Positions 20,461-22,641 of a DNA stretch of 32,000 nucleotides are shown piece after piece. Below the pieces are notes generated by a model. That model had not been told where the DNA came from. It was given only the letters and a program-made list of their open reading frames with translations, and made no database searches. The translations under genes and the position numbers were made by a program. Location of the stretch: positions 24,712 to 56,711 of the forward strand of contig DGGR01000022.1 of assembly GCA_002392285.1 (NCBI GenBank). The letters run 5' to 3'. The DNA comes from Verrucomicrobia bacterium UBA3869 (GTDB taxonomy: Bacteria; Verrucomicrobiota; Verrucomicrobiia; Opitutales; UBA9783). Every line of letters starts with the position of its first letter. The stretch's first letter is position 1.

Positions 20461-22641
20461 TTATATTTTATTAACGACCTGATTGTAGGTGAGGTTAAGC
20501 TTTTTAATGCAATTAGCTGCATTTGATTCAAAATTGCTTATTTTATTGCGATAGTTTGAAACGGTTTTTTGCGTTGAGGTTACTTCCGTATTGATGTTTT
20601 CAATGGTGGTTTGGTAGTCGGTGGTCCAACATTTTACCAATGCGGTCCAGCTACCTGCCATATCGTTTTTATAGTCGTTCCAAGTGTTTTCAGAACCTCC
20701 GTAACCACTTACAAGTATAGGGCTAATATCTAAGCGATTGACCTCTAGTTCTTTAGGTAAATTATTCTGGTTAGGCTCATACAAAACGTAGATCGAATCA
20801 AGCGTGTTTCCGTTCCATATGGTCCCTCTAACATTGTGGCGGAAATGAAAACACGCTGGATAAACATTGGAGTATCCTGGAACAGCTTGTGTTGTGCGAC
20901 CGATCCCACAGGTGCATAGATCTAATGGACCATATCCTTGTAGTAGCAACTGCGCATATTCTTCTTGTGTCATATAACCCCATTGAGGTGCAAGAAATAA
21001 CAAAACTGGTAGTCCCTTGGTGTAATCAAAGGTATGGTCATAAAAATAAGGGTTATTGTATCCATCCCCTGTTACGTAGTGGAAAAACTTTTGGATGGTA
21101 TCATTATCGGCCTTGATCAAGAGATAATTGTTTGTTGCGGTATGATGGTCATTGGCCGTTGGTGTATTACAGACACCTTGTAATACAACGTAGGTATCCG
21201 TTGACCCATTGATGGTCATTTCTATGGATGTACGGGTAATGTTTGCCCCCAGATAACGTAGTACGCAATAGGCATCATTGGTGATACTCGCATTCCCATT
21301 GGACTGACTTTGATTGAGGGCTTGCAAACCGCGATTAGCTAGATTGAGGTAAAAGTTTAATGCTTCGATGCGTCTTTGCACCATTTTAGTCATGGAAAGC
21401 AACGCATTAACTTTTGTTTCCATAAACAAAGCGAGTGCGTAAAGAGCGTTGTAGTGTTTGACTAAATAACCGATAAAAAACAATTCCATATTACCGATTT
21501 CCTCTGTATCTTTTACGTAATCGGTTGATGGGGGAGTTGGGATGCAAGGAATTCCTGTTTTGAGATTGTTGGGAAATACAGAACGTTCACCCTTTAAGGT
21601 GTAATACAAAATAATGTATTTGAGCCTATCGAGTAAGGGCAATTCGTTAAAAAGGGCGATAGCGGAAGTTTGGGTTTGATATTGATCCCAATCTGCATCT
21701 ATTTCCACCTGAGCGTCAGGATCAAATCGGTCCGTTAATATTTTTACGGTTTCCCCTTCTTCATTTTGTCGTTCAACGTAATATGTATCGACAACCAGCA
21801 CGTTAGGGTAGGAATACTTTTTAGTTTGTAGGGCGCGTAAGGTCGCTAGCGATTGGCTATCGGCGTCTGTGATTTTAGATTTAAATTCCTCCGTTAGATC
21901 CATTTCCTTTGTGTCGTATTGGGTAAAGGCTCGGGTGGATAATAAGGAATATTTTTCTTCATCAAACCATAGTTCATGAGCAATGGTTCTTACAGTGCCT
22001 GATTTGACTACATAATATTCCGAAAAGGTTTTGGTTGATTCTTTTGCTTGCGTTTCTAGAATGCTTAATGTGTTCAGGCAGGGGATAGCTTCTTGATCCG
22101 GAGCCCCTTCATCCATTAACTTCTTTAACTGATCCAATTCGATCTTTGCGTTGTTGATGACTGTATAGAGCGTATTTGCTTGATTGACCACATCCCGTAT
22201 GTGATCTTTGTACGCTTTGTTTCCTAACAAACAGGTGTTTTCAGGTAGGGGTAGAGGGTTATCGTCAAGAATGTTTTGAAGATTTAGGGGGAAAGAATAA
22301 GTTCGTTTGCTGACTAGTTGAAAGATTTTGTTGATCTGATTGAGGATATTGGTCTTAACTTTTTCGTAAGATCCTTCGGTCGTTAAGTGCCCGAATAATT
22401 TTACGTAATAGGCATAACGTTCCCTAATATCCTCTAGGCTATTGACTGGATTTGGCACAGCACGATTCGGTAGAACGTGAATCGAATTGGCCTGTAAGCG
22501 TTGCGCTAATTGATTCGGTAGAATGGGACCTATTGCCATGGAACAGAATGAATAAAAGCAGGATTTGTGCCACTGGGTTACAATGGGCTGCGATAAAATG
22601 TTTTTGACAACGGGGTAATGATGGGCGTATACTACCTGCAT
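20461..22641 (-). CDS. Large hypothetical protein, first gene of the chaperone-translocator operon; candidate T3SS substrate
   Basis: The ORF is long and uninterrupted, and ends 5 nt before the chaperone gene. The probable true start is the ATG at 22539 (MAIGPILPNQ...), giving 692 aa. The 34 upstream codons are His/Cys/Trp/Tyr-rich and overlap a promoter-like motif. From Met35 there is no acidic residue in the first 35 aa. Confidence 0.6.
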   Translation of the reverse strand: MQVVYAHHYPVVKNILSQPIVTQWHKSCFYSFCSMAIGPILPNQLAQRLQANSIHVLPNRAVPNPVNSLEDIRERYAYYVKLFGHLTTEGSYEKVKTNILNQINKIFQLVSKRTYSFPLNLQNILDDNPLPLPENTCLLGNKAYKDHIRDVVNQANTLYTVINNAKIELDQLKKLMDEGAPDQEAIPCLNTLSILETQAKESTKTFSEYYVVKSGTVRTIAHELWFDEEKYSLLSTRAFTQYDTKEMDLTEEFKSKITDADSQSLATLRALQTKKYSYPNVLVVDTYYVERQNEEGETVKILTDRFDPDAQVEIDADWDQYQTQTSAIALFNELPLLDRLKYIILYYTLKGERSVFPNNLKTGIPCIPTPPSTDYVKDTEEIGNMELFFIGYLVKHYNALYALALFMETKVNALLSMTKMVQRRIEALNFYLNLANRGLQALNQSQSNGNASITNDAYCVLRYLGANITRTSIEMTINGSTDTYVVLQGVCNTPTANDHHTATNNYLLIKADNDTIQKFFHYVTGDGYNNPYFYDHTFDYTKGLPVLLFLAPQWGYMTQEEYAQLLLQGYGPLDLCTCGIGRTTQAVPGYSNVYPACFHFRHNVRGTIWNGNTLDSIYVLYEPNQNNLPKELEVNRLDISPILVSGYGGSENTWNDYKNDMAGSWTALVKCWTTDYQTTIENINTEVTSTQKTVSNYRNKISNFESNAANCIKKLNLTYNQVVNKI
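22557..22572 (-). promoter_or_regulatory. Sigma-54 (-24/-12)-like promoter element upstream of the T3SS-type module
   Basis: The minus strand reads TGGCAC-AAATCC-TGCT, with GG and GC separated by 10 nt as in the consensus TGGCAC-N5-TTGCW. The motif ends 17 nt upstream of the ATG at 22539. Confidence 0.4.

What the first reader, a model, noticed from the sequence alone, without database searches (positions are those of the whole stretch)
22557..22572. Sigma-54 -24/-12-like element directly upstream of the T3SS-type module
The minus strand reads TGGCAC-AAATCC-TGCT, matching TGGCAC-N5-TTGCW in the invariant GG and GC and in their spacing. My manual scan found no other TGGCAC/GTGCCA occurrence with a correctly spaced GC. 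A complete sigma-54 activator gene lies 7 kb away (29404-30702). In Chlamydia trachomatis, the CtcC/sigma-54 regulon has been reported to include late membrane and T3SS-associated genes, so this link is biologically plausible.

One caveat applies. The motif ends only 17 nt before the ATG at 22539, which implies a leader of about 7-9 nt with no Shine-Dalgarno. If the annotated upstream ATG (22641) is real, the motif is intragenic.
Basis: partly seen in the sequence, partly recalled or inferred. Interest (0 to 1): 0.6.

Follow-up and report, generated by a model that had tools for sequence, protein, structure and literature searches.

The report
Sigma-54 promoter before secretion-system operon
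A conserved sigma-54-type promoter sits just upstream of a type III secretion translocator operon in an uncultured gut Verrucomicrobia (Opitutales) genome, not a Chlamydia, and it lies so close to the start codon that the mRNA should have almost no leader.

Summary
The motif TGGCACAAATCCTGCT is on the minus strand at 22572..22557. It has one mismatch to TGGCAC-N5-TTGCW, and it is the only one of nine TGGCAC copies in the window with a correctly spaced GC. A weight matrix built only from other lineages scores it 20.9 bits; the next best of 64,000 window positions scores 11.4.

It lies in real intergenic DNA. The ATG at 22641 is very unlikely to be used: gene callers start all relatives at 22539, the "extension" shows no third-codon-position bias, and it contains an invariant sigma-70-type infC promoter.

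The organism is a gut Opitutales/Opitutae MAG. In six lineages (down to 23-36% protein identity), the same GG-N10-GC element sits 13-21 nt (-12 C to the A of ATG) before the first gene of homologous modules. Flanking sequence is not conserved.

The operon encodes a 692-aa protein of unknown function, a SycD-class chaperone and an SctE/SseC translocator. An NtrC-type activator with GAFTGA lies 7 kb away.

The short leader (predicted 1-9 nt) recurs in every lineage examined. Shine-Dalgarno-like sequences are rare in this genome anyway.

I judge this a functional sigma-54 promoter. rpoN, the start site and the cognate activator remain untested. The Chlamydia analogy is weak.

The parts
22557..22572 (-). 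Sigma-54-type -24/-12 promoter element TGGCAC-AAATC-CTGCT (GG at 22571/22570, GC at 22559/22558)
   Evidence: Sequence read. It is the unique match. The leave-window-out weight matrix scores it 20.9 bits against 11.4 for the next best. GG and GC are invariant in L001, L003, L005 and L006. The same element occurs in equivalent positions in L007, L009-L016, L018, L019 and L021.
22540..22546 (-). Predicted transcript start (about 22546, i.e. 12 nt downstream of the -12 C) and a predicted 5' leader of about 7 nt with no Shine-Dalgarno
   Evidence: Inferred from canonical sigma-54 geometry; not measured. The homologous promoters give predicted leaders of 1-9 nt.
20461..22539 (-). First gene of the operon: a 692-aa protein of an uncharacterised family and a putative T3SS substrate or translocon-associated protein. 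The start codon is the ATG at 22539.
   Evidence: All homologues are called at 692 aa. No Pfam or NCBIfam match. Only 73 representatives in 1.84 billion proteins. AlphaFold2 model has pLDDT 86 with residues 1-28 disordered. No Foldseek PDB match. A homologue with 27% identity precedes the chaperone-SctE pair in L016.
19904..20455 (-). SycD/LcrH-class (TPR) type III secretion chaperone, 183 aa, starting 5 nt after the previous gene
   Evidence: PF07720 TPR_3 scores 27.3 bits, above its cut-off. TIGR02552 LcrH_SycD has E 3.6e-21 but falls below the curated cut-off. It shares 36% identity with the L016 chaperone.
18719..19900 (-). SseC/SctE-type type III secretion translocon protein, 393 aa, starting 3 nt after the chaperone gene
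   Evidence: PF04888 SseC scores 41.1 bits against a cut-off of 30.2. NCBI names the 80%-identical relative 'type III secretion system translocon subunit SctE'.
22604..22633 (+). Divergent sigma-70-type promoter TTGACA-N18-TATACT for infC, back-to-back with the sigma-54 element. It lies inside the supposed 22641-start extension.
   Evidence: Matches 11 of 12 consensus positions and is the only sigma-70-like site in 22300..22900 on either strand. Both hexamers are invariant in all relatives.
22667..23245 (+). infC (translation initiation factor IF-3), the divergent neighbour
   Evidence: IF3_N and IF3_C domains; TIGR00168 E 5e-45.
29404..30702 (+). NtrC-family sigma-54 enhancer-binding protein (receiver, AAA+ with GAFTGA, HTH_8). 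It is a candidate activator but is not shown to be the cognate one.
   Evidence: Domains; GAFTGA. Called as 432 aa and syntenic in L001 and L003.

Best explanation
The element is a functional sigma-54 (RpoN)-dependent promoter. It drives a three-gene operon: a 692-aa protein of unknown function, a SycD-class chaperone and an SctE/SseC translocator. The host is a gut Opitutales bacterium.

Proposed mechanism: sigma-54 holoenzyme binds GG(-24)/GC(-12) as a closed complex. An AAA+ enhancer-binding protein with a GAFTGA loop, possibly the one at 29404..30702, remodels it using ATP. Transcription then starts at about 22546, some 7 nt before the ATG at 22539. The operon mRNA is therefore nearly leaderless and is translated without a Shine-Dalgarno sequence.

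The promoter stands back-to-back with a constitutive-type sigma-70 promoter for infC.

Shown: the motif, its uniqueness in the window, its intergenic position, its conservation with fixed spacing and fixed proximity to the start codon in six lineages, the operon content, and the presence of an activator.

Inferred: rpoN in the genome, the start site, activator dependence, which activator acts, and the mode of translation.
For: - Motif and spacing are as described.
- A weight matrix built from six promoters of other lineages scores this site 20.9 bits; the next best of 63,968 window positions scores 11.4.
- In four relatives (81-90% protein identity) TGGCA and TGCT are invariant, while the 20 nt just upstream are heavily substituted in L003.
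- Homologous modules at 23-36% identity carry [T/A]GGCA[CT]-N5-N[T/A]GCT with the -12 C 13-21 nt before the first ATG and unrelated flanks. These are L007, L009/L010, L011/L012/L013/L015/L021 and L014. The orthologous cluster in L016-L019 (large protein, TPR chaperone, SctE) carries it too.
- No sigma-70-like promoter faces the operon within 22300..22900.
- The three genes are separated by 5 and 3 nt.
- The activator has an intact GAFTGA loop.
- No Rfam family matches and there is no excess RNA structure, z = -0.02.
Against: - No rpoN gene was seen. None occurs in the window, in 8 kb beyond its start, or in any fetched locus. Its presence rests on the activator and the promoters themselves.
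- No transcript 5' end is available.
- No convincing enhancer (UAS) was found upstream in the window lineage.
- A leader of about 7 nt is unusual for sigma-54 promoters.
- The -15 position is C (A in L003) rather than the consensus T.
- Within the window alone the core match is not significant.
Confidence: 0.8

Rival explanations
1. The conserved bipartite sequence is the binding site of some other DNA- or RNA-binding factor. Alternatively it is a 5'-UTR element of a transcript that starts further upstream from an unrecognised promoter. In either case it is not a sigma-54 promoter.
For: No start site is known. GGCA and UGCU could in principle pair as a 4-bp stem (sequence). The whole stretch from the motif to the ATG is conserved in the close relatives.
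Against: The conserved letters are exactly the sigma-54 contact positions at the exact 10-nt spacing, and they are invariant rather than covarying across six lineages. The RNA fold is no better than shuffles, z = -0.02. No Rfam match. No sigma-70-type promoter faces the operon. In the distant loci nothing else between the motif and the ATG is conserved.
Confidence: 0.07
2. It is a genuine sigma-54 binding site but not the main promoter. It might be a poised or repressive closed-complex site, or a secondary promoter, with the operon mainly expressed from another promoter type not covered by the consensus scan.
For: Sigma-54 closed complexes are stable and can occlude neighbouring DNA. Dual sigma-54/sigma-66 arrangements were proposed for Chlamydia ct394 and ct444 (PMC7482065). 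The sigma-70 scan uses an E. coli-type consensus only.
Against: The same placement directly before the first start codon recurs at every homologous module examined, including intergenic regions of only about 80 nt in L016-L019. That leaves little room for another promoter downstream of the element.
Confidence: 0.06
3. The motif is inside the coding sequence of a 726-aa protein that starts at the ATG at 22641, and it is conserved as protein sequence.
For: The reading frame is open from 22641 in the window and in all four relatives.
Against: All homologues are called at 692 aa. Substitutions against L003 in the 34-codon extension fall 9/5/8 over codon positions, compared with 82/57/195 in the real gene. 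An invariant TTGACA-N18-TATACT infC promoter lies inside the extension. In other lineages the motif lies in plainly non-coding DNA.
Confidence: 0.03
4. It is a chance match with no function.
For: 21% of shuffled windows contain TGGCAC-N6-TGC at least once.
Against: Its position and orientation, and its conservation across six lineages with diverged flanks. It is also an outlier under the weight matrix.
Confidence: 0.02

Closest known systems
Canonical sigma-54 promoters (consensus TGGCAC-N5-TTGCW, Barrios et al. 1999, as cited in PMC7482065; archetype E. coli glnAp2, from my own knowledge)
   Same: GG at -24 and GC at -12 with fixed spacing. An NtrC-family activator with GAFTGA is encoded nearby.
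   Different: The start codon lies only 13-21 nt from the -12 C, giving a predicted leader of 1-9 nt. Classical examples have leaders of tens of nucleotides (my own knowledge). No enhancer has been identified in the window lineage.
Chlamydia trachomatis sigma-54 promoters ct652.1/ctl0021 and ct683/ctl0052 (consensus TGGCACAATTTTCGCT; PMC12282069)
   Same: The element is nearly identical (TGGCACAAATCCTGCT here). The host belongs to the same PVC superphylum.
   Different: The phylum is different (Verrucomicrobiota, order Opitutales). The Chlamydia targets are not the translocator operon: ct576 (scc2-copB-copD) was classed as an indirect target with a sigma-66 promoter (PMC7482065). ChIP-seq found only two sigma-54-bound promoters (PMC12282069). 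CtcC lacks a DNA-binding domain (PMC3162934), whereas this activator has HTH_8 and no adjacent kinase gene.
Pseudomonas syringae HrpR/HrpS-sigma-54 control of type III secretion (cited in PMC3162934)
   Same: Sigma-54 plus AAA+ activators gate expression of a type III secretion system.
   Different: There sigma-54 acts on hrpL, an ECF sigma factor gene that in turn drives the T3SS genes (my own knowledge). Here the -24/-12 element sits directly in front of the translocator and substrate operons.
Sigma-54-dependent flagellar (type III export) genes, e.g. Campylobacter/Helicobacter FlgR, Vibrio, Caulobacter FlbD (my own knowledge; FlgR and FlbD models appear among the activator's NCBIfam hits)
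   Same: Exported axial or substrate proteins of a type III machine are transcribed directly from sigma-54 promoters.
   Different: Here the module belongs to the injectisome type (SycD-class chaperone, SctE translocator; CesT and IpgD in relatives), not the flagellum.

Membership tests
Sigma-54 (RpoN)-dependent -24/-12 promoter | GG and GC dinucleotides separated by exactly 10 nt, within TGGCAC-N5-TTGCW | tested here: met
   TGGCACAAATCCTGCT has one mismatch at -15.
Sigma-54 (RpoN)-dependent -24/-12 promoter | Lies in non-coding DNA upstream of a gene and is oriented towards it | tested here: met
   The start at 22539 is supported by gene calls in relatives, the codon-position test and the infC promoter inside the alternative extension.
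Sigma-54 (RpoN)-dependent -24/-12 promoter | The elements and their spacing are conserved upstream of orthologous or homologous genes while the flanks diverge | tested here: met
   Seen in four close relatives and five further lineages. The spacer sequence varies and the spacing is constant.
Sigma-54 (RpoN)-dependent -24/-12 promoter | The genome encodes sigma-54 (rpoN) | not testable with these tools
   No RpoN-box ORF occurs in the window, in 8 kb beyond its start or in the fetched loci. The rest of the genome could not be read.
Sigma-54 (RpoN)-dependent -24/-12 promoter | The genome encodes a bacterial enhancer-binding protein with a GAFTGA loop | tested here: met
   ORF 29404..30702: Sigma54_activat E 1e-69, GAFTGA present.
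Sigma-54 (RpoN)-dependent -24/-12 promoter | Upstream activator-binding sites (enhancer), usually dyad repeats about 80-150 bp upstream | tested here: inconclusive
   Tandem GGAAAATTTTTCC palindromes lie upstream of the element in L009, L010 and L014. The window has only isolated palindromes inside infC.
Sigma-54 (RpoN)-dependent -24/-12 promoter | Transcription starts 11-13 nt downstream of the GC and needs the activator's ATPase | not testable with these tools
   This needs 5'-end mapping and a reporter or in vitro assay.
Type III secretion translocator operon (class II chaperone plus SctE/SctB translocators) | SycD/LcrH-class TPR chaperone | tested here: met
   PF07720 is above its cut-off. 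TIGR02552 has E 3.6e-21, but at 75 bits it is below the curated 104.8, so the protein matches the class without being an equivalog.
Type III secretion translocator operon (class II chaperone plus SctE/SctB translocators) | SseC/SctE-family major translocator | tested here: met
   PF04888 scores 41.1 bits against a cut-off of 30.2. NCBI names the 80% relative SctE.
Type III secretion translocator operon (class II chaperone plus SctE/SctB translocators) | A second translocator or tip protein, and injectisome apparatus genes in the genome | tested here: inconclusive
   The 692-aa protein always precedes the chaperone-SctE pair but matches no family or solved fold. Apparatus genes were not searched for.
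Chlamydia CtcB/CtcC-sigma-54 regulon | The host is a member of the Chlamydiota | tested here: not met
   Every related record is an Opitutales, Opitutae or Verrucomicrobia MAG.
Chlamydia CtcB/CtcC-sigma-54 regulon | The activator lacks a DNA-binding domain and is paired with the adjacent kinase CtcB | tested here: not met
   The activator has HTH_8. The upstream gene is an acyltransferase. CtcC lacks a DNA-binding domain according to PMC3162934.

The most novel reading that the evidence does not exclude
Gut and rumen Opitutales carry a lineage-wide sigma-54 regulon of type III secretion substrate and translocator modules. In it the -24/-12 element is systematically placed 13-21 nt from the start codon, so these mRNAs are leaderless or nearly so (predicted leaders 1-9 nt).

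That would couple activator-gated, all-or-none transcription directly to Shine-Dalgarno-independent translation of secreted proteins. I found no description of this promoter-to-start-codon architecture for sigma-54, and it concerns a T3SS in a phylum where its regulation is unstudied.
Probability: 0.45. Interest if true: 0.65.

Novelty: new member of a known kind. Interest (0 to 1): 0.5.

Why it matters
It gives a concrete, testable regulatory handle on a type III secretion system in uncultured gut Verrucomicrobia. Relatives of this genome also carry CesT chaperones and IpgD-type phosphoinositide phosphatase effectors, which points to interaction with eukaryotic cells.

It shows direct sigma-54 control of translocator and substrate operons. 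In Pseudomonas syringae the control is indirect, through HrpL. In Chlamydia the link between sigma-54 and T3SS genes is now disputed.

The recurring near-absence of a leader raises the question of how sigma-54 transcripts of secreted proteins are translated. The promoter set found here (about a dozen sites from six lineages) could seed a weight matrix to define the regulon in these MAGs.

Tried and rejected
- A metagenome scan anchored on the 5' coding sequence found nothing. Alignment A3 was too diverse for the search for related loci. The A2 scan added only one more member of an already sampled lineage (L021) and a duplicate of L015.
- A search for rpoN by the RpoN-box motif found none in any fetched DNA. 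Extending beyond the window start found none. The look-up for the Mip/FKBP protein at the other end was not on record.
- The search for a shared enhancer motif gave a clear tandem palindrome only in L009, L010 and L014. Nothing was shared with the window, L007, L012 or L016.
- The RNA-element reading was rejected: no Rfam hit and fold z = -0.02.
- The N-terminal-extension reading was rejected.
- The literature search for leaderless sigma-54 transcripts returned no described case.
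Full report
**Observation.** The minus strand of the window at 22572..22557 reads TGGCAC-AAATC-CTGCT. GG (22571/22570) and GC (22559/22558) are separated by exactly 10 nt. The 16-mer has one mismatch (C for T at -15) to TGGCAC-N5-TTGCW. Seventeen nucleotides separate it from the ATG whose A is at 22539. Nine TGGCAC hexamers occur in the window on both strands, and only this one has GC at the -12 spacing.

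Taken alone this is weak evidence. TGGCAC-N6-TGC is expected 0.27 times per window, and 21 of 100 shuffles contain at least one. The bare GG-N10-GC occurs 243 times.

**Where it sits.** The longest ORF runs 20461..22641 (726 aa) and would make the motif intragenic. Four lines of evidence argue against that start.
- Every homologue in the protein collection is called at 692 aa, which corresponds to the ATG at 22539.
- A sigma-70-type promoter, TTGACA-N18-TATACT (11 of 12 consensus positions), lies on the plus strand at 22604..22633, 34 nt before the infC ATG at 22667. It is the only such site in 22300..22900 on either strand. Both hexamers are invariant in all relatives, and the promoter lies inside the supposed extension.
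- Substitutions against the 82% relative fall 9/5/8 over the three codon positions in the 34-codon extension, compared with 82/57/195 in the gene proper.
- The frame does remain open in all four relatives, which is why naive ORF listing picks 22641.

The motif is therefore in a 127-nt divergent intergenic region, back-to-back with the infC promoter and facing the operon.

**The operon and the organism.** Downstream on the minus strand lie three genes separated by 5 and 3 nt.
- A 692-aa protein with no Pfam or NCBIfam match.
- A 183-aa TPR protein of the SycD/LcrH class. PF07720 is above its cut-off. TIGR02552 has E 3.6e-21 but is below the equivalog cut-off.
- A 393-aa SseC-family protein (PF04888, 41 bits against a cut-off of 30). 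NCBI names its 80% relative "type III secretion system translocon subunit SctE".

All related records are MAGs labelled Opitutales, Opitutae or Verrucomicrobia, from horse faeces, rumen and human gut. This is not a chlamydial genome.

The 692-aa family is small: 73 representatives in 1.84 billion proteins. With a 47-sequence alignment, AlphaFold2 gives a confident model (pLDDT 86, pTM 0.76). Residues 1-28 are disordered, long terminal helices are present, and beta-rich domains are inserted between them. Foldseek finds no solved structure with E < 0.1.

A homologue with 27% identity immediately precedes the chaperone (36% identity) and SctE (31%) in loci L016-L019. The three-gene module is therefore an evolutionary unit.

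**Comparative test of the promoter.**

*Close relatives* (81-90% protein identity; L001, L003, L005/L006). These read TGGCATAAATCCTGCT, TGGCACAAATCATGCT and TGGCACAAATCCTGCT. TGGCA and TGCT are invariant, while the 20 nt just upstream are largely replaced in L003.

*Distant homologues* (23-36% identity). These occur in a different arrangement: a 116-120-aa gene followed by two large paralogues. In every case a sigma-54-type element lies directly before the first gene. The last column is the distance from the -12 C to the A of the ATG.

| Locus (position) | Element | Distance (nt) |
|---|---|---|
| L007 (6736) | TGGCATGAAATGTGCT | 17 (to the ATG at 6767 called) |
| L009 (4813) | TGGCACTGTATATGCT | 15 |
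| L010 (5016) | TGGCATTGTATATGCT | 15 |
| L011 (3720) | AGGCACAAAATCTGCT | 17 |
| L012, L015, L021 | TGGCACAAAACCTGCT | 17 |
| L013 | TGGCACAAAACTTGCT | 17 |
| L014 (two copies, 4897 and 4944) | TGGCATTTTTCTTGCT | 21 (proximal copy) |

L009 and L010 have a second such element on the other strand, TGGCATCAATATTGCT, 13 nt before a 748/756-aa gene.

*The orthologous cluster.* In L016-L019 the orthologous module is embedded in a longer, tightly packed cluster. Its order is a 281-296-aa gene, an epimerase, a CesT chaperone, an IpgD-domain protein, the large family protein, the TPR chaperone, SctE and a STAS protein. The element TGGCACGTTTCTAGCT lies 16 nt before the first ATG of the cluster.

Flanking sequences are unrelated between lineages. 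The spacer sequence varies but its length never does.

A weight matrix built from six of these sites, with the window excluded, scores the window site 20.9 bits. The next best of 63,968 window positions scores 11.4.

This is the pattern expected of a sigma-54 promoter and of little else. The conserved letters do not covary. The RNA folds no better than shuffles (z = -0.02). No Rfam family matches.

**The short leader.** With the usual geometry (start 12 nt after the -12 C; my own knowledge of glnAp2-type promoters), the predicted leaders are 7 nt in the window lineage and 1, 3, 4, 5 and 9 nt in the others.

The lack of a Shine-Dalgarno sequence is also unremarkable here. Only about 4 of 29 window genes show a GGAG-like sequence upstream. 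infC itself has a predicted leader of about 26 nt, so short leaders are not universal in this genome.

A literature search found no described leaderless sigma-54 transcripts. In C. pneumoniae only five leaderless mRNAs were reported, and none of the mapped promoters of protein-coding genes carried a sigma-54 motif (PMC3333780).

**The activator.** ORF 29404..30702 encodes receiver, Sigma54_activat (E 1e-69), AAA_lid_14 and HTH_8 domains with an intact GAFTGA loop. It is syntenic in L001 and L003. The gene upstream is an acyltransferase, not a kinase.

The activator's presence implies a sigma-54 system, but nothing ties it to this promoter.

A likely enhancer was seen only in other lineages: two GGAAAATTTTTCC palindromes 19 bp apart, 60-80 nt upstream of the -24 element in L009, L010 and L014. 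In the window, only isolated palindromes inside infC were found.

rpoN was not found in any DNA I could read, and the rest of the genome was out of reach.

**Comparison with the known.** The element is almost identical to the chlamydial consensus TGGCACAATTTTCGCT (PMC12282069).
- In C. trachomatis the translocator operon ct576 rose on CtcC overexpression but has no sigma-54 promoter, and it fired without sigma-54 in E. coli (PMC7482065).
- ChIP-seq detected sigma-54 at only ctl0021 and ctl0052 (PMC12282069).
- CtcC has no DNA-binding domain (PMC3162934).

Sigma-54 control of type III systems is known elsewhere: P. syringae HrpR/S (cited in PMC3162934) and flagellar genes (my own knowledge). 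This is a new member of a known kind. The notable points are the direct placement before translocator and substrate operons, in Verrucomicrobiota, with near-leaderless geometry.

**Verdict.** The Chlamydia framing should be dropped. Still untested are rpoN, the transcription start, activator dependence and the identity of the cognate activator.

Noticed in passing
window 22604..22633 (+): A near-perfect sigma-70-type promoter, TTGACA-N18-TATACT, lies 34 nt before infC. It is invariant in all relatives and stands back-to-back with the sigma-54 element (32 bp between the -35 hexamer and the -24 GG). The two promoters could interfere with each other.
   Followed up: partly
L009 4736/4755; L010 4939/4958; L014 4785/4804: Two copies of the palindrome GGAAAATTTTTCC, 19 bp apart, lie 60-80 nt upstream of the -24 element of the sigma-54-type promoters. 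They are a candidate binding site for an enhancer-binding protein. No equivalent was found in the window.
   Followed up: partly
L009 3138 (-) and L010 3347 (-): A second sigma-54-type element, TGGCATCAATATTGCT, lies only 13 nt (-12 C to the A of ATG) before a 748/756-aa gene with no Pfam match. The predicted transcript is essentially leaderless.
   Followed up: partly
L014 4897 and 4944: The sigma-54-type element is duplicated in tandem, 47 nt apart, upstream of the same small gene. The proximal copy is part of a palindrome, ATGCCATATTATGGCAT.
   Followed up: no
L016 2351..4929, L019 2348..5136, L018 2018..4223: Relatives carry a CesT-family chaperone followed by an IpgD-domain (phosphoinositide phosphatase-type) protein in the same sigma-54-headed cluster as the translocator module. 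This suggests a eukaryote-directed T3SS in gut and rumen Opitutales.
   Followed up: no
window 20461..22539 (-); model m144686ffa73a: The 692-aa protein belongs to a small family (73 representatives in 1.84 billion proteins). The AlphaFold2 model is confident (pLDDT 86): disordered residues 1-28, long N- and C-terminal helices and inserted beta domains. It has no Foldseek match in the PDB. The protein always sits just before the class II chaperone and SctE.
   Followed up: partly
L007 6767..11275; L010 5045..9086; L012 3776..7683; L014 4979..9014: A recurrent paralogous module has a 116-120-aa protein (N-terminus ...L-[KE]-E-L-[AES]-[EQ]-L-[DK]) followed by two large members of the 692-aa family. 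None of these has a Pfam match.
   Followed up: partly
L016 4869..4884: TGGCATAAATGTAGCT lies inside the end of the IpgD-domain gene, 51 nt before the large family gene. It resembles the window's element but is lost in L018 and L019. It may be an internal or vestigial promoter, or a chance match.
   Followed up: no
window, all gene starts: Shine-Dalgarno-like sequences precede only about 4 of 29 genes (glyA, tkt, the ABC ATPase and the dCMP deaminase). This organism seems to initiate translation largely without them.
   Followed up: partly
window 1301..1591 (+): A 96-aa HU/IHF-type DNA-binding protein gene (Bac_DNA_binding in the identical locus L023). Proteins of this kind often assist DNA looping at sigma-54 promoters.
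   Followed up: no
window 12673..15213: Three ORFs (217, 196 and 474 aa) have no Pfam match. Genes of similar size are called at the same position in the relatives (474-aa gene as 373-453 aa), next to a ClpX-like AAA+ gene. Their function is unknown.
   Followed up: no
window 12503..12576 (-) and 27518..27589 (-): Two tRNA genes (Rfam RF00005, 69 and 63 bits).
   Followed up: no
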